Shown: positions 50,828 to 57,972, counted from the stretch's first letter. The stretch: 61,212 nucleotides of DNA from Mycoplasmatota bacterium (GCA_022763805.1 JALERC010000009.1:1-61212); one strand, 5' to 3'. Made by a program: numbers and translations. The notes: generated by a model from the letters alone, not told the origin.

Positions 50828-50850
50828 AAAAGGATTAAGAAATCCTTTTA
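50826..50850. terminator. bidirectional terminator
   Basis: Stem AAAGGATT/AATCCTTT with loop AAGA, flanked by A and T runs. Confidence 0.68.
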
Positions 50851-52416
50851 ATTTGTGATTGATATAATTTTAATTCTTACATAACCATTCCCATTATGTC
50901 CTTTTTCAAAATATCCATTATTAGGATTGATAAATGTATCTTGGCCATTTAATAAATTACAATCAGATAGAGTGTTCTTACAATAACCAGAACCTCCACC
51001 TCCCCCGCCGTAGCGACTACCTCCACCGCCACCGTAGTAGCCGCCTCCGCCGCCACCACCTGCAAAATTAGATGAAGAATATGAGTAAGAAGCACCATTA
51101 CCTCCTAAACCAAGACTACCTGCTGTAGCTACGGTTGTACAATTAGTAGTATAACTTGCTGCAGCACCTCCCCCAGTTTGAGTACCAGCACCACCTAAAT
51201 AAGTATCACTAGAACATTCTCCTATACCACCAGTAGTTCCACCACCAAAACCACCATAACAAGAAAATGAACTATCGTTTCTGCTACCACCACCAGCACC
51301 ACCGCCAGCAACAATGATTCTATCTGTAAATGCTTTTCCATTTAATCTAATATCTGATGCTCCGCCACCAGATCCTGCAATAGAAATATCCCCAGAACCA
51401 GATTTACCACCACCGTTAAATCCGCCATTTTGATTGTTTCCAGTTAAACCTTCTCCACCTACATAAATATAAGCAACATCATCTTTGGTTAATAAAGCAG
51501 TAGCACTAGTATAGCCACCAAATCCTTTCATACGATCAGTTCCACCGCCTGATGCTCCCCATGTTTCTATTTGATATACACCTGTTACAGGAATAGTTAA
51601 TTTTTGACTATCTCCGGTATATTTAAAATCATATGTAGGTTTGAGTGTAGTTACTGTTCTCGTTGTTTCGTAAACGACACCACCATAAGGATCTTTATAT
51701 CGGTATCTAATAGTATATACACCATTTTCTTCATTTAGAACATTACCTATTACTTCAACACTAGGATCATTTAATGTAGTTGTTTTAGATTCTGTATCAT
51801 ACAAATAATATCCTGGATCATTATATTTCATACCCACAAATGAAATATCATTTTCATTACCTATTAATGTAATTATTTTTTTAGTATTAGGTATATCTAC
51901 TACTTTTAACCCAGAAATTGAACATTCTTTACTATTGTATTGATATACAACATTTATACCAAAATCCTCACCTTCAAAATTTTTATTATATATAGGAATA
52001 TTTAATCTTAATATACCATCATATTTAATATTATTGTCAGATGTTGCAACTGTATTTGCTGTCATTTGAATATTACCAAATGATGAACCATTTATTAATT
52101 TTTCTTTAAATGAACCATAAGTTATAATATTAGTTTTTCTATCATAATTTAACTGTTTATCAGTTCCATCTTTAAAAAGAAATCTAGCACATGTATCACC
52201 ACATTTTACAGCTACATAAACTTTTTTTGTTCTGAAATCATAATTAATTTTTTCACTTAATAATGCTTGTTGAGTAAGAACATTCGTCCTTATTCCTGAG
52301 TCAGAATATATATTTTTAAGTACTATTATTATTTCTAATAAAAAATATGTTATTACGGATACAAGAGTAAAAGTAACAATTAATTCAACTGTCGTAAACC
52401 CATTTTTTTTAGTCAT
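50848..52416 (-). CDS. giant modular type IV prepilin: pilin N-terminus + Ig-like (DUF5011-like) module + glycine-rich domain
   Basis: Leader 'MTKKNG|FTTVELIVTFTLVSV' (Glu+5). Middle segment 'ITLIGNENDISFVGMKYNDPGYYLYD...VEVIGNV...GVYTIRYRYKDPYGG...RTVTT'. C-terminus 'IETWGASGGG...GGFNGGGKSG...AGGGAGGG...GGGGGGGYYGGGGGSRYGGGGGGSGYC'. I placed the start at ATG 52416 (AAGGTGA 8 nt upstream); the track start includes the SD. Confidence 0.75.
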   Translation of the reverse strand: MTKKNGFTTVELIVTFTLVSVITYFLLEIIIVLKNIYSDSGIRTNVLTQQALLSEKINYDFRTKKVYVAVKCGDTCARFLFKDGTDKQLNYDRKTNIITYGSFKEKLINGSSFGNIQMTANTVATSDNNIKYDGILRLNIPIYNKNFEGEDFGINVVYQYNSKECSISGLKVVDIPNTKKIITLIGNENDISFVGMKYNDPGYYLYDTESKTTTLNDPSVEVIGNVLNEENGVYTIRYRYKDPYGGVVYETTRTVTTLKPTYDFKYTGDSQKLTIPVTGVYQIETWGASGGGTDRMKGFGGYTSATALLTKDDVAYIYVGGEGLTGNNQNGGFNGGGKSGSGDISIAGSGGGASDIRLNGKAFTDRIIVAGGGAGGGSRNDSSFSCYGGFGGGTTGGIGECSSDTYLGGAGTQTGGGAAASYTTNCTTVATAGSLGLGGNGASYSYSSSNFAGGGGGGGYYGGGGGSRYGGGGGGSGYCKNTLSDCNLLNGQDTFINPNNGYFEKGHNGNGYVRIKIISITN

Positions 52417-55745: not shown

Positions 55746-55755
55746 AAAATCCCTC

Positions 55756-57972
55756 CTAACTAAGTTGTGAATACATACCAAACATTGGGATTATGATTGA
55801 CATTACAATTAAACCTACCGCACCTGTTAAAAAAAGTATCAATATAGGTTCTACAAAGGCCTTAATACGACCTACTTGATTTTTATGTAATTCTTGATAG
55901 TAATCAGATACTTTTTGCATCATTTCTGGTAATTGCCCAGTTCTTTCTCCTGTAACAATCATTTCGTAAGCTGGAATTGGTACAGCCCAGTGATCTTGGA
56001 ATGCTAAAGAAATCTTATCCCCTTTAGCTAAATTAGTAATAGTATCTAAAATTATCATTTTCCAAATCTCGTTATTAGTAATTTTGTTTAGTATCTCCAT
56101 ACTATCAGTAATAAATACATTATGTTTTAAAAGTGAAGCAAATGTTTTTGTAAACATTGTAACTTCATTGTATATAATTACATTACCTACGATAGGTAAT
56201 TTCATTAACATCCACTGTATCATTGTTCTAAATAATTTTACATTCTTATATAACCAAACAAATATAAAAATTACACCAATAATACCAATTATTAATAATA
56301 TTAAATATTTTTTTAAGAATTCACTTAATGCAAGAACAGCAACTGTAATCCATGGTAATTCAGCATTGTCCATATCTTCGTAAATAGTTACAAATTGCGG
56401 TACAATGTAAATCATAATAAATACAATAGCACAAATAGCAAGCACAAAGATAATAGCTGGATAAGTTAATGCTGTAATCATTTGTTTCTTTGTTTTTTCC
56501 ATTTCACTAAAGTAATCAGCCATATCATCAAGAGTTTCCGGTAACTCACCAGTCATTTCTGATGCTTTAACCATGTTTACTAAAATTCTTGGAAAGGAAT
56601 TACCTTGTTTTGCCATAGCATCACTAAAGTTATCCCCCATTGTTAATTCATAAATTAATGATCTAAATATTTTTTCATATGATTTCTCTTTAAATTGTCT
56701 ACTTAAAATTCTTAAAGATTCAACTAACGGAATACCAGCTTTAATATAGGTAGATAATTGTGTTAAGAAGAATATCATATCTTTGTTTTTAATTTTACCT
56801 TTACTTTTTCCACCAGATCCATGTAAAAATTGGATTAATCCACTTGTTTTAATACTGTATACTTCAAAACCTTCAGAAAGTAGAAATGAGTGAACCTCAA
56901 CTTTTGAGAAAGCTTCAAAATAATCTTTAACAATTTTTCCTTCAGCATTTTTACCTACATATTCATAAACAACTTTTTTATCGCTTTTTTTAGCATCATC
57001 ACCATCGAAATTAATTAATAATGCTTCACGTTGCATTAAATCTTCATTTCGTTTATTACGCAATATAGCATTGTCTGTAATTTTTTTCTTTGCTTTTTCA
57101 ATTGCTTTTTTAGGACCTGCAATTAATGATTCAAGTACATTATTAATTCTATCACCTAAAGTTTTAGGTTCTATTTTTACATCTTCGTTTATATATACAT
57201 TTTTTTCTTTTAATTTTTGTTTTTCACGTTTTAATTCATCTTTTCGTTTTTTCTCTTCTTCTTTTGTTTTTTTCTTAGCTTCTATTTTCTCTAAGCGTTT
57301 TTTTGCTTTTTCTTCTTTTTTAGTAAGTACTTTTTTAGATTCCTGATTAATATTATCACCATTCATAGTACCACTAATAATAACTTTACGTTTTTCACGT
57401 TCTTCTTTTTCTTTAGCTTGTTTTAATAATTCTTTTTGTTCAATAATTTCGGCTTTCTTTTCTTCTTCAAGTTTAGCCTCTTCTTCTTTTTTACGTTTTG
57501 CTTCTAACTTACTTAATTTAACTTTATCTTCTTTTTCTTTTGCCTCAACTTTTTTCTTTAAACGTTCCATCTCTTGTTCATGTTTAAGTTTAGCTTTTTC
57601 TTCTTTTGATAAATGTTTTTTATCTTTAACGGTAAGAACTTTTTCATTTTTCTTAGCATCTACTTTATCACCATTAATAGTAGAAACTTTTTCATTTTTC
57701 TTAACATCTATTTTTTTATTTTCTTTCTTTTGTGGTTTTTCTTTTAACAGAACAAATGGAAATGCTAATGCATAACCAATATATTTCATTATCTTCCACC
57801 AAATAAAGGAAATAAACATACCTAAATCAACGAATATCGTTATTGTACTGTAGAGCGAATAAAATATACCAACTAACATATAATGAAATGCTAAAAATGG
57901 TATTTTAAATAATAGACTTACTATTTTATAAACTATTATAGCTGGCCACAGTATAATTGGTTTATCTCGCAT
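55756..57972 (-). CDS. pilC: type IV pilus platform protein (GspF/PilC) with a roughly 330-aa N-terminal TM + K/E-rich coiled-coil extension
   Basis: The C-terminal 400 aa or so are a typical two-repeat GspF ('VYEYVGKNAEGKIVKDYFEA...', 'LSTYIKAGIPLVESL', 'MVKASEMTGELPE', 'MIVTGERTGQLPEM'). The N-terminus has hydrophobic helices and then about 230 aa of K/E repeats. Start placed at ATG 57972 (GGAAGGTG SD). Confidence 0.85.
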   Translation of the reverse strand: MRDKPIILWPAIIVYKIVSLLFKIPFLAFHYMLVGIFYSLYSTITIFVDLGMFISFIWWKIMKYIGYALAFPFVLLKEKPQKKENKKIDVKKNEKVSTINGDKVDAKKNEKVLTVKDKKHLSKEEKAKLKHEQEMERLKKKVEAKEKEDKVKLSKLEAKRKKEEEAKLEEEKKAEIIEQKELLKQAKEKEEREKRKVIISGTMNGDNINQESKKVLTKKEEKAKKRLEKIEAKKKTKEEEKKRKDELKREKQKLKEKNVYINEDVKIEPKTLGDRINNVLESLIAGPKKAIEKAKKKITDNAILRNKRNEDLMQREALLINFDGDDAKKSDKKVVYEYVGKNAEGKIVKDYFEAFSKVEVHSFLLSEGFEVYSIKTSGLIQFLHGSGGKSKGKIKNKDMIFFLTQLSTYIKAGIPLVESLRILSRQFKEKSYEKIFRSLIYELTMGDNFSDAMAKQGNSFPRILVNMVKASEMTGELPETLDDMADYFSEMEKTKKQMITALTYPAIIFVLAICAIVFIMIYIVPQFVTIYEDMDNAELPWITVAVLALSEFLKKYLILLIIGIIGVIFIFVWLYKNVKLFRTMIQWMLMKLPIVGNVIIYNEVTMFTKTFASLLKHNVFITDSMEILNKITNNEIWKMIILDTITNLAKGDKISLAFQDHWAVPIPAYEMIVTGERTGQLPEMMQKVSDYYQELHKNQVGRIKAFVEPILILFLTGAVGLIVMSIIIPMFGMYSQLS

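What the first reader, a model, noticed from the sequence alone, without database searches (positions are those of the whole stretch)
50848..57972. Atypical type IV filament locus: giant adhesin-like pilins only, extended PilC, ComGA-sized PilB
What the sequence shows:
- A PilB/ComGA-type ATPase (+) lies convergent with pilC-pilD (-) and divergent from two prepilin genes (-).
- Both prepilins have canonical G|F-x-x-x-E leaders but are 323 and 522 aa long and carry adhesin-type modules.

What is missing or unusual:
- There is no roughly 100-170-aa major pilin, no PilT-type retraction ATPase and no PilM/N/O in the locus.
- The ATPase starts at the N2 domain (ComGA-like) and ends in an acidic repeat tail.
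- The platform protein carries a roughly 330-aa N-terminal extension.
- Gene order is unlike the collinear comG operon or clostridial pil operons as I know them.

Taken together this looks like a variant T4 filament or pseudopilus machine dedicated to displaying large modular tip or shaft proteins.
Basis: partly seen in the sequence, partly recalled or inferred. Interest (0 to 1): 0.75.

Follow-up and report, generated by a model that had tools for sequence, protein, structure and literature searches.

The report
Minimal type IV pilus, adhesin-bearing pilins
An uncultured, very AT-rich gut bacterium carries a stripped-down type IV pilus gene set whose two pilus subunits carry adhesin-type domains; the locus is real and conserved, but it is a new variant built from parts that are each already known.

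Summary
Window 50848-57987 encodes five genes:
- a 526-aa prepilin (pilin module, Ig-like domain, ALK/LTK-type glycine-rich domain);
- a 323-aa prepilin (pilin module plus two MucBP-like domains);
- a divergent PilB/GspE-class ATPase that lacks N1 and has an acidic repeat tail;
- a prepilin peptidase;
- a PilC/GspF platform with a roughly 340-aa N-terminal extension.

No PilT, PilMNO or Com uptake genes were found by Pfam in the 61-kb window.

The same five-gene order recurs in at least six related metagenomic lineages. Both leaders (G|F-x-x-x-E) are conserved across about 30 orthologues each.

1. In four sister lineages the first pilin is a conventional 159-166-aa pilin. The 323-aa form is that pilin with MucBP-like domains grafted on.
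2. A third large prepilin with a major-pilin-like helix lies 27 kb away, and one relative has its counterpart inside the locus.
3. Lack of PilMNO and PilT is normal for Com pili, modular pilins are described, and the N_methyl-GRD architecture is already catalogued.

My best reading is a Com-like minimal machine with PilB/PilC-class parts that builds an adhesive filament with the GRD pilin at its tip. A major pilin elsewhere in the genome could not be excluded.

The parts
50848..52428 (-). Trimodular prepilin ('GRD pilin'), 526 aa. Class III leader plus pilin module occupy residues 1-165 (nt 51934-52428). An Ig-like domain occupies residues 180-262 (nt 51643-51891). An ALK/LTK-type glycine-rich domain occupies residues 265-524 (nt 50857-51636).
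   Evidence: Pfam finds ALK_LTK_GRD (E 1.3e-33) and Bact_surface_Ig-like (E 1.6e-8). The AF2 model has pLDDT 86.8, with an alpha1 helix at 13-67 followed by a beta head. Foldseek's best matches are ALK/LTK GRD structures (E 3e-8) and a Bxb1 phage tail-tip protein. In BFVD the GRD matches a gut siphovirus protein at 37% identity, rmsd 3.2 A. F+1, T+2 and E+5 are invariant and G-1 is nearly invariant (at least 90%) in 27 orthologues.
52409..53380 (-). Prepilin 'pilin A', 323 aa. The pilin module occupies residues 1-170 (nt 52871-53380). Two MucBP-like beta-grasp domains occupy residues 177-316 (nt 52433-52852). Its stop overlaps the start of the GRD pilin gene.
   Evidence: The AF2 model has pLDDT 85.1. 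Foldseek's best matches are YwfG (7yl4, E 4e-9), the L. reuteri MUB repeat (3i57) and the Spr1345 mucin-binding domain (3nz3). Pfam MucBP hits 10 of 29 family members, best E 1.9e-9. In the MKK..KGFMLTETLIV leader, M1, K2, G8, F9, L11, T12 and E13 are invariant in 29 orthologues and K3, M10, T14 and I16 nearly so. A strong RBS (AAGGAAGGGG) lies before the GTG start. Orthologues of 159-166 aa in L085-L088 align to residues 1-161.
53381..53465 (.). An 85-bp divergent intergenic region between the pilin operon and the ATPase gene.
   Evidence: Coordinates and sequence. Promoter-like hexamers occur here, but the scan as a whole is not above chance.
53466..54941 (+). Extension ATPase, 491 aa. It comprises N2 and the C-terminal ATPase domain only, with no N1. 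The acidic, low-complexity tail is residues 396-491 (nt 54651-54941) and includes a 24-nt tandem repeat at 54848-54899.
   Evidence: Pfam T2SSE, E 1e-123. The PilB, GspE and PilF structures align from N2 onward at about 340 bits each. NCBIfam gives PilB 476 bits, GspE 472 and ComGA 263; every score is below its equivalog cut-off. Read directly from the translation: Walker A (GATGSGKST), Asp box, Walker B, His box and CxxC...CxxC. Tail and repeat.
54981..55781 (-). Prepilin peptidase (PilD/ComC type). It is 266 aa from the TTG start, or 254 aa from the ATG at 55745.
   Evidence: Pfam A24_N_bact (E 2e-30) and Peptidase_A24 (E 1e-16). The CxxC..CxxC and GGGDIK motifs are visible in the translation.
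55756..57987 (-). Platform protein (PilC/GspF class), 743 aa (738 aa from the ATG at 57972). The canonical part is residues 341-743 (nt 55756-56967). The N-terminal extension is residues 1-340 (nt 56968-57987). The extension has a hydrophobic block at about residues 9-85 (nt 57733-57963), then a Lys/Glu-rich stretch, then a conserved juxta-PilC segment.
   Evidence: Pfam T2SSF x2. The full-length GspF model matches 341-739. The extension is conserved in L003 and L005 with net charge +30. It belongs to a clade of about 40 cluster representatives, 476-839 aa, all N-extended, set apart from canonical 400-aa PilCs by a fall from over 380 bits to about 230 bits.
58013..58041 (-). Promoter-like site (TTTAAA-17-TGnTATAAT) upstream of the platform gene.
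   Evidence: This is a consensus match only, and the scan overall is not enriched above shuffled sequence.
22966..24222 (-). Third prepilin, 418 aa, outside the finding's coordinates. Its leader is MKK|GFTLIELL, its alpha1N is major-pilin-like (G14, P22), and it has a DUF6273-like C-terminal region.
   Evidence: Found by the motif scan. Pfam N_methyl E 3.5e-5; weak DUF6273. It belongs to a family of more than 3000 proteins of 300-720 aa, many carrying N_methyl or DUF6273. A protein of the same class (319 aa) sits directly downstream of the GRD pilin in relative L087.

Best explanation
This is a conserved, self-contained type IV filament locus of an uncultured, roughly 23% GC gut Bacilli lineage.

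The machine is reduced to three proteins:
- a PilD-type prepilin peptidase;
- a PilB/GspE-class extension ATPase without the N1 domain;
- a PilC/GspF-class platform with a lineage-specific N-terminal appendage.

This is the component set of a Com pilus, but the parts are not ComGA or ComGB by family thresholds.

The dedicated substrates are two prepilins transcribed divergently from the ATPase. Pilin A is orthologous to a conventional 160-aa pilin in sister lineages. In this subclade it has gained two C-terminal MucBP-like domains. The second is a conserved trimodular pilin: pilin module, Ig-like domain and ALK/LTK-type glycine-rich domain.

Proposed mechanism:
1. PilD cleaves both precursors after the conserved Gly.
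2. The ATPase and platform pair extracts the pilins from the membrane and polymerises them through their alpha1 helices.
3. Pilin A is the repeating or proximal subunit.
4. The bulky GRD pilin is the single large tip pilin. This is analogous to TcpB/CofB of type IVb pili and to PilB/PilC of S. sanguinis.
5. The result is an adhesive fibre presenting MucBP-like and phage-receptor-binding-protein-like modules to mucus glycans or to other cell surfaces.

Shown: gene content, domain architecture, leader conservation, synteny, and the module-grafting history of pilin A.

Inferred: processing, polymerisation, which pilin forms the shaft and which the tip, and the adhesive role.
For: - Core genes and domains.
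- ATPase catalytic motifs are intact (read), and it aligns to the PilB, GspE and PilF structures from N2 onward.
- Leader conservation: in the GRD pilin, F+1, T+2 and E+5 are invariant and G-1 is nearly invariant in 27 orthologues. In pilin A, G-1, F+1 and E+5 are invariant in 29 orthologues.
- The AF2 models show a long N-terminal alpha1 helix plus a beta or alpha/beta head, followed by separate modules.
- Module identities: GRD resembles ALK/LTK GRD and phage tail proteins. Pilin A's C-terminal half resembles MucBP, MUB and YwfG.
- The five-gene order is conserved in L001, L003, L005, L085, L086, L087 and L088. The ATPase-pilinA-GRD pilin trio is also kept in L007.
- The 159-166-aa orthologues of pilin A show the ancestral 'small pilin plus one large pilin' layout.
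- No other prepilin lies within 7-10 kb of the locus in any of these loci, apart from the third in-locus pilin in L087.
- No PilT, PilMNO or ComE was found in the 61-kb window.
- Precedents from the literature: Com pili need only pilins, peptidase, ATPase and platform (PMC10191384). Type IVb pili replace the four HIJK minor pilins by fewer minor pilins, and CofB forms a tip-located trimer. Modular pilins carry grafted adhesin modules and are probably tip-exposed (PMC8179133).
Against: - Only 61 kb of the genome is visible. A conventional major pilin, PilT, PilMNO or a comG operon could lie elsewhere.
- Neither in-locus pilin has the G14/P22 helix-breakers typical of polymerising major pilins. 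The out-of-locus 418-aa prepilin has both (read).
- No pilin-fold match was obtained for the pilin modules by sequence. Foldseek hits were dominated by the C-terminal modules.
- There is no expression, processing or imaging evidence.
- The role of the PilC extension is unexplained. The idea that it pairs electrostatically with the acidic ATPase tail holds only in the closest three lineages.
Confidence: 0.55

Rival explanations
1. Both in-locus pilins are minor (tip or priming) pilins. The shaft is made by a pilin encoded elsewhere. That pilin could be the 418-aa class with the canonical FTLIELL...G14...P22 helix, or a small pilin not present in the window.
For: - The third prepilin at 22966-24222 has a major-pilin-like alpha1N.
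- A member of the same class sits immediately downstream of the GRD pilin in L087.
- Related MAGs encode small canonical pilins, for example a 142-aa one in L056.
- The in-locus pilins lack G14 and P22, as many minor pilins do.
Against: - The 418-aa class is poorly conserved; the nearest non-conspecific relative is 34% identical.
- It is absent from the locus in seven of eight relatives examined.
- In contrast, the pilin A and GRD pilin pair is always linked to the ATPase.
- A 160-aa first gene of a two-pilin operon is the usual position of a major pilin.
Confidence: 0.3
2. This is the lineage's derived competence (DNA-uptake) pilus. It would be a ComG system with diverged genes and pilins, used by a reduced-genome organism to scavenge DNA.
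For: - The component set is the same as Com: ATPase without N1, platform, peptidase, and no PilMNO or PilT (PMC10191384).
- The host is a monoderm in class Bacilli (record titles).
Against: - The ComGA model scores 263 bits against a cut-off of 300. The ComGB model scores 141 against 240. Both are well below the PilB (476), GspE (472) and GspF (280) scores.
- The two in-locus pilins match no ComGC-GG model.
- The genes are not a collinear operon.
- No ComEA, ComEC or ComF lies in the window.
- The pilin modules are of adhesin type (MucBP-like, Ig-like, GRD), not a known DNA-binding type.
Confidence: 0.1
3. This is a display or secretion device rather than a long pilus. A short pseudopilus or bindosome-like assembly would insert many large class III signal-peptide proteins into the envelope and expose them. 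The clients would include the widespread 300-880-aa 'KKGFTLIELL' proteins of these lineages.
For: - Large prepilin-type proteins are very abundant in related MAGs. Searches found more than 3000 relatives, often in tandem arrays.
- All three prepilins visible in this genome are at least 323 aa.
Against: - The strictly conserved linkage of exactly two pilins with the ATPase looks like a dedicated filament.
- Sister lineages have an ordinary 160-aa pilin.
- No secreted-substrate gene is linked to the locus.
Confidence: 0.15

Closest known systems
Com (competence) pilus machinery of monoderms (ComGA, ComGB, ComC, ComGC-GG; 'T4dP')
   Same: The minimal component set is the same: pilins, prepilin peptidase, an extension ATPase lacking N1, and a platform. 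There is no PilMNO(P), no PilT and no secretin. The host is in class Bacilli.
   Different: The ATPase and platform score as PilB/GspE and GspF class and fall below the ComGA and ComGB cut-offs. There are two pilins rather than one major plus four minor. There are no ComGC-GG homologues. The ATPase is divergently transcribed instead of leading a collinear operon. The pilins carry adhesin modules, and the platform has a long N-terminal extension.
Type IVb pili with one large modular minor pilin (TcpA/TcpB, CofA/CofB)
   Same: Both have a two-pilin layout: one ordinary pilin plus a single minor pilin of about 500 aa made of a pilin module and extra beta domains. That minor pilin is thought to sit at the tip (PMC10191384; PMC8179133). 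No PilT homologue was found in the window; that TCP and CFA/III pili also lack a retraction ATPase is from my own knowledge of these systems.
   Different: Type IVb pili are restricted to Proteobacteria. They have long leaders, extra cytoplasmic-membrane components (TcpR/D/S) and a secretin. There is no sequence relationship to the pilins here.
Modular pilins of Streptococcus sanguinis T4P (PilB-vWA, PilC-lectin)
   Same: A pilin module is fused through a short linker to an adhesin module not specific to T4P. The host is a monoderm. The predicted function is adhesion (PMC8179133, PMC9934059).
   Different: S. sanguinis has small major pilins (PilE1/E2), PilT and PilMNO in a 21-gene locus. Here the modules are MucBP-like and Ig-like plus GRD. 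The probable shaft pilin is itself modular in this subclade.
ALK/LTK glycine-rich domain (PF12810) and phage tail-fibre glycine-rich receptor-binding domains
   Same: The same polyglycine-rich fold is predicted. In phages such domains form the receptor-recognising distal tip (PMC9608196).
   Different: Here the domain is the C-terminal module of a prepilin. The ligand is unknown. The N_methyl-PF12810 architecture is listed but uncharacterised in Dataset S1 of PMC8179133.
Archaeal bindosome assembly system (Bas)
   Same: It offers a concept: a T4F-type ATPase and membrane protein pair handling large functional proteins that carry class III signal peptides (PMC3047682 abstract).
   Different: It is archaeal, its clients are solute-binding proteins, and there is no homology beyond the superfamily. 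The BasE model scores only 29 bits.

Membership tests
Type IV filament (T4F) superfamily | Prepilin peptidase of family A24 | tested here: met
   Pfam A24_N_bact (E 2e-30) and Peptidase_A24 (E 1e-16), both above the gathering scores.
Type IV filament (T4F) superfamily | Extension ATPase of the T2SSE/PilB family with intact NTPase motifs | tested here: met
   Pfam T2SSE at 413 bits. About 340 bits to the PilB, GspE and PilF structures. Walker A, Asp box, Walker B, His box and the tetracysteine motif are read in the translation.
Type IV filament (T4F) superfamily | Polytopic platform protein with two T2SSF repeats | tested here: met
   Pfam T2SSF with two stretches, 171 bits. The full-length GspF model aligns to 341-739.
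Type IV filament (T4F) superfamily | [quoted passage not shown] | tested here: met
   The motif is present in both in-locus proteins. In pilin A, G-1, F+1 and E+5 are invariant in 29 orthologues. In the GRD pilin, F+1 and E+5 are invariant and G-1 nearly invariant in 27. AF2 predicts alpha1 helices at residues 13-67 and 6-44 followed by beta or alpha/beta heads. The Pfam N_methyl model is not reached by the two in-locus proteins themselves, but it is by some GRD-pilin orthologues and by the third prepilin. Actual cleavage and methylation were not tested.
Com pilus (ComG, T4dP) | ATPase is a ComGA equivalog | tested here: not met
   NF041000 scores 263.3 bits against a cut-off of 300. The PilB and GspE models score 476 and 472.
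Com pilus (ComG, T4dP) | Platform is a ComGB equivalog | tested here: not met
   NF041012 scores 140.8 bits against a cut-off of 240. GspF scores 280.
Com pilus (ComG, T4dP) | Major pilin ComGC plus minor pilins ComGD-GG in a collinear operon behind comGA-comGB | tested here: not met
   The two in-locus pilins hit no NCBIfam ComGC-GG model. The ATPase is divergent from the pilins and convergent with pilC-pilD.
Com pilus (ComG, T4dP) | No PilMNO, no PilT, monoderm host | tested here: inconclusive
   None was found in the 61-kb window. The rest of the genome is not available.
Type IVa pilus | PilB equivalog with an N1 domain | tested here: not met
   TIGR02538 scores 476 bits against a cut-off of 675.65. 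The alignment starts at model position 177, and only 12 residues precede N2 in the maximal ORF.
Type IVa pilus | PilMNO alignment complex and PilT retraction ATPase | tested here: inconclusive
   Absent from the window and from 7-10 kb flanks in seven related loci. A genome-wide test is not possible with these tools.
Modular pilins (sensu Raynaud et al. 2021) | An N-terminal pilin module fused to one or more domains not specific to T4P biology | tested here: met
   GRD pilin: Ig-like domain plus PF12810. Pilin A: two MucBP-like domains, absent from the 159-166-aa orthologues.

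The most novel reading that the evidence does not exclude
The 323-aa pilin A is the repeating shaft subunit. This lineage would then build a 'bottle-brush' type IV pilus in which every subunit displays two MucBP-like domains, capped by a phage-receptor-binding-protein-like glycine-rich tip. 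It would be assembled by the smallest PilB/PilC-class machine known, with no N1, PilMNO or PilT, and with the N-terminal appendage of the platform substituting for the missing membrane scaffold. A reduced-genome gut bacterium could use such a fibre to anchor itself to mucus or to other microbes.
Probability: 0.2. Interest if true: 0.7.

Novelty: new variant of a known kind. Interest (0 to 1): 0.45.

Why it matters
If the two-pilin, three-protein machine works as proposed, it would be a natural minimal PilB/PilC-class assembly system outside the Com family. That would be useful for asking what the PilMNO scaffold and the ATPase N1 domain are really needed for.

It also gives a clean evolutionary snapshot of module grafting. 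The same pilin exists with and without two MucBP-like domains in sister lineages.

Finally, it points to a colonisation factor (MucBP-like and glycine-rich modules) in an uncultured gut Bacilli lineage for which nothing is known experimentally. The glycine-rich module's close similarity to gut phage tail proteins suggests exchange of receptor-binding modules between phages and pili.

Tried and rejected
- **Exact-sequence look-ups.** The look-ups for the ATPase and for the 418-aa prepilin found nothing, so the source contig could not be extended.
- **Genome-collection scan.** It returned mostly unrelated GRD proteins and only L005, L006 and L007 as true orthologous loci. A genome-wide search for a major pilin, PilT or PilMNO was therefore impossible.
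- **Electrostatic tether.** I proposed that the basic PilC extension pairs with the acidic ATPase tail and so replaces N1 and PilM. The window, L003 and L005 fit (extension +30, tail -15 to -18). L085 (-5, -5) and L086 (+18, -1) do not. I demoted this to speculation.
- **The hydrophobic block as a universal feature of the PilC extension.** Rejected. L085 and several clade members have Q/P-rich or acidic extensions instead.
- **ComG membership.** Rejected on the NCBIfam cut-offs.
- **PDB relatives of the pilin modules.** Sequence and profile searches found none. HHalign between the two pilin families matches only the leader and alpha1N.
- **Promoter and terminator scans.** Not enriched over shuffled sequence, so they are used only as hints.
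- **Literature.** Searches found no description of this architecture, only the general concepts.
- **AuxB hit.** The weak NCBIfam hit of the PilC extension to AuxB is probably compositional: a transmembrane segment plus a Lys/Glu-rich stretch.

Full report
**1. What is in the sequence**

The window is very AT-rich, about 18-31% GC in 2-kb bins. It reads cleanly under genetic code 11.

Between 50848 and 57987 there are five genes.

On the minus strand lie:
- a 526-aa ORF (50848-52428);
- a 323-aa ORF (52409-53380) that overlaps it by 20 nt.

A 491-aa ORF on the plus strand (53466-54941) diverges from these across an 85-bp spacer.

Converging on its 3' end, on the minus strand, are:
- a 266-aa ORF (54981-55781);
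- a 743-aa ORF (55756-57987).

Pfam identifies them as follows:

| ORF | Pfam result |
|---|---|
| 526 aa | ALK_LTK_GRD (E 1.3e-33) plus Bact_surface_Ig-like |
| 323 aa | no hit |
| 491 aa | T2SSE (E 1e-123) |
| 266 aa | A24_N_bact plus Peptidase_A24 |
| 743 aa | T2SSF, two stretches |

Both minus-strand proteins downstream of the spacer start with a short basic leader, then G|F-x-x-x-E and a hydrophobic stretch.

The ATPase aligns to the PilB model only from model position 177. The maximal ORF has just 12 residues before N2, so N1 is absent.

Residues 396-491 of the ATPase are an acidic, low-complexity tail with a 24-nt tandem repeat. Tail length differs between strains: 487 aa in L001.

The full-length GspF model covers residues 341-739 of the platform protein. 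That leaves an N-terminal extension of about 340 aa. It has a hydrophobic block at about residues 9-85, then a Lys/Glu-rich region with net charge +30, then a conserved segment that leads into PilC proper.

**2.

The six-frame scan finds a third prepilin 27 kb away, at 22966-24222 (-), 418 aa. Its leader is MKK|GFTLIELLCIIIILGVIALIAVP. It has an N_methyl hit and a weak DUF6273-like C-terminus.

Unlike the two in-locus pilins, it has Gly14 and Pro22, as polymerising major pilins and GspG do.

Pfam scans of essentially all other ORFs of at least 100 aa found housekeeping and sporulation genes. These include the dcw cluster, SpoIIGA-sigE, SpoIVB, MnmA, GlmS, MutS, GreA, TruB and CysS. No PilT, PilM/N/O, ComEA or ComEC was found.

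**3. Is it a real, conserved system?**

Yes.

The GRD pilin has about 60 full-length relatives of 509-554 aa at 40-65% identity. Those that carry a source name are called 'Bacilli bacterium', and one contig is labelled gut metagenome.

The 323-aa pilin has 30 relatives.

Leader conservation is strong:
- In pilin A, G-1, F+1 and E+5 are invariant in all 29 sequences.
- In the GRD pilin, F+1, T+2 and E+5 are invariant and G-1 is nearly invariant in 27 sequences.

This argues that the leaders are functional.

The order PilC-PilD-(ATPase, opposite strand)-pilin A-GRD pilin-(YlbJ-like, opposite strand)-YlbL recurs in these loci:
- L001 (same species as the window);
- L003 and L004 (NCBI GCA_023429745.1);
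- L005 (isolate CGS3Y3-bin41);
- L085, L086 and L088;
- L087, where an IS1595 element is inserted.

In L007 the ATPase and the two pilins stay together while PilC-PilD are elsewhere. L084 shows PilC-PilD alone.

All these ATPases lack N1 and carry a variable low-complexity tail.

An exhaustive HMMER search with the platform protein gives about 40 cluster representatives above 380 bits (42-67% identity). All are 476-839 aa, that is, N-extended. The score then drops sharply to about 230 bits (30% identity) for canonical 400-aa PilC/GspF proteins.

The extended platform therefore marks a distinct clade. The extension itself varies: it can be a hydrophobic block, a K/E-rich stretch or a Q/P-rich stretch.

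**4. What the pilins are**

AlphaFold2 models were built with family alignments and are confident, at pLDDT 86.8 and 85.1.

*GRD pilin.* The model shows a 55-residue alpha1 helix, a beta head, an Ig-like domain and a glycine-rich domain.
- The best PDB matches are the ALK/LTK GRD structures and a mycobacteriophage Bxb1 tail-tip protein.
- In BFVD it matches a gut siphovirus protein at 37% identity and rmsd 3.2 A. It also matches cyanophage virion structural proteins and a tail-fibre protein.
- In phages such glycine-rich domains form the receptor-recognising fibre tip (PMC9608196).

*The 323-aa pilin.* The model shows alpha1, a small alpha/beta head up to about residue 170, and then two beta-grasp domains.
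- These domains match YwfG, the L. reuteri MUB repeat and the Spr1345 mucin-binding domain.
- Pfam MucBP is hit by 10 of 29 family members.

*The key comparative result.* In L085, L086, L087 and L088 the gene in the same position encodes a pilin of 165, 159, 160 and 166 aa. These align to residues 1-161 of the 323-aa protein at 36-47% identity, with E values from 5e-37 to 4e-50.

Pilin A is therefore a conventional pilin that acquired two MucBP-like domains in the window's subclade.

Apart from L087, no further prepilin lies within 7-10 kb of the locus in any relative. In L087 a 319-aa protein of the same class as the window's third prepilin follows the GRD pilin. This links that class to the same machine.

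**5. Most likely mechanism**

The component set is pilins, peptidase, ATPase and platform, and nothing else nearby. This is what Pelicic's review gives as the Com pilus machinery and as the probable minimal T4F assembly complex (PMC10191384).

The parts, however, are not ComG:

| NCBIfam model | Score (bits) | Cut-off (bits) |
|---|---|---|
| ComGA | 263 | 300 |
| ComGB | 141 | 240 |
| PilB | 476 | 675.65 |
| GspE | 472 | 630.25 |
| GspF | 280 | 424 |

The PilB/GspE-class and GspF models score much higher than the Com models.

The layout of one ordinary pilin plus one roughly 500-aa trimodular pilin resembles type IVb pili. There the four HIJK minor pilins are replaced by fewer minor pilins, and CofB forms a tip-located trimer. 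It also resembles the tip-exposed modular pilins of S. sanguinis (PMC8179133).

I therefore propose the following sequence:
1. PilD processes both precursors.
2. The N1-less ATPase and the platform polymerise pilin A.
3. The GRD pilin sits at the tip.
4. The fibre mediates adhesion.

In this subclade each pilin A subunit would carry MucBP-like domains.

Gene content, architecture, conservation and grafting history are shown. Processing, polymerisation, subunit positions and adhesion are inferred.

The function of the PilC extension remains open. An electrostatic pairing with the acidic ATPase tail fits only the three closest lineages.

**6. Rivals**

(a) The in-locus pilins are minor pilins and the shaft pilin lies elsewhere. 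This is plausible because only 61 kb is visible, and because the third prepilin has the canonical helix. Against it, that class is poorly conserved and rarely linked to the locus.

(b) The locus is a derived competence pilus. This is unlikely on the HMM thresholds, the pilin types and the lack of uptake genes nearby.

(c) The locus is a bindosome-like display system for the many large class III signal-peptide proteins of these lineages (PMC3047682).

These readings are not mutually exclusive.

**7. Novelty and score**

Each ingredient is known:
- Modular pilins are known. The N_methyl-PF12810 architecture is even listed in Dataset S1 of PMC8179133.
- Minimal machines without PilMNO or PilT are known.
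- N1-less ATPases are known.

The new elements are the conserved combination in an uncultured gut Bacilli lineage, the N-extended platform clade, and the with/without MucBP pair of orthologous pilins.

I found no paper describing this architecture.

I classify it as a new variant of a known kind, of moderate interest. The central 'no major pilin' claim cannot be settled without the whole genome.

Noticed in passing
window 22966-24222 (-): A third prepilin of 418 aa (MKK|GFTLIELL..., with G14 and P22; N_methyl plus a weak DUF6273-like C-terminus). It belongs to a family of more than 3000 large prepilin-type proteins of 300-720 aa. Those with a source name are 'Bacilli bacterium'.
   Followed up: partly
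window 24330-24479 (+): A glmS ribozyme/riboswitch (Rfam RF00234, 79 bits) lies upstream of glmS (24500-26314). It is directly adjacent to the divergently oriented third prepilin gene.
   Followed up: no
window 6420-9014 (-): Four tandem paralogous ORFs of 212-219 aa, 40-50% identical to each other, with no Pfam match. They are followed by three small ORFs with no Pfam match and hydrophobic N-termini (9265-10812).
   Followed up: partly
window 10867-12095, 35040-36011, 49871-50827: Sporulation-type genes sit in a roughly 23% GC genome next to a dcw cluster (MurG, MurB, FtsQ, FtsA, FtsZ at 12144-17252). They are SpoIIGA-like, a sigma factor in the sigE position, SpoIVB and a YlbJ-like 'Gate' protein.
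   Followed up: no
window 54848-54899 (+); L001 7482-8945: A 24-nt tandem repeat encoding ESLSIEEP lies in the ATPase tail. The called ATPase is 487 aa in the conspecific contig L001 against 491 aa here, which may reflect repeat-length polymorphism between strains.
   Followed up: partly
window 27188-28495 (-): A single 435-aa ORF combines a VanY D-Ala-D-Ala carboxypeptidase domain with a class I glutamine amidotransferase / peptidase C26 domain.
   Followed up: no
L087 1980-4694 and 8625-9584: In this relative, two unknown genes and an IS1595-family transposase are inserted between PilD and the ATPase. A third prepilin of 319 aa with a canonical FTLIELL helix follows the GRD pilin.
   Followed up: partly
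L038 1004-11020; L008 1169-5363; L020 9719-12374; L049 7739-10407: Tandem arrays of two to four very large prepilins (405-857 aa), all starting KKGFTLIELLAV.... They occur in MAGs labelled Ignavibacteriales, Muribaculaceae, Bacillales and Mycoplasmatota. No ATPase homologue was detected in the fetched flanks.
   Followed up: no
window 55756-57987 (-), residues 16-257: The PilC extension gives a weak NCBIfam hit to the lipoteichoic-acid stability factor AuxB (E 4.7e-8, 32 bits against a cut-off of 300). This is probably compositional: a transmembrane segment plus a Lys/Glu-rich stretch.
   Followed up: no
window 46110-48251 (-): A 713-aa protein with an alpha-amylase catalytic domain only in its first 250 residues or so. 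The remaining 460 residues or so have no Pfam match.
   Followed up: no
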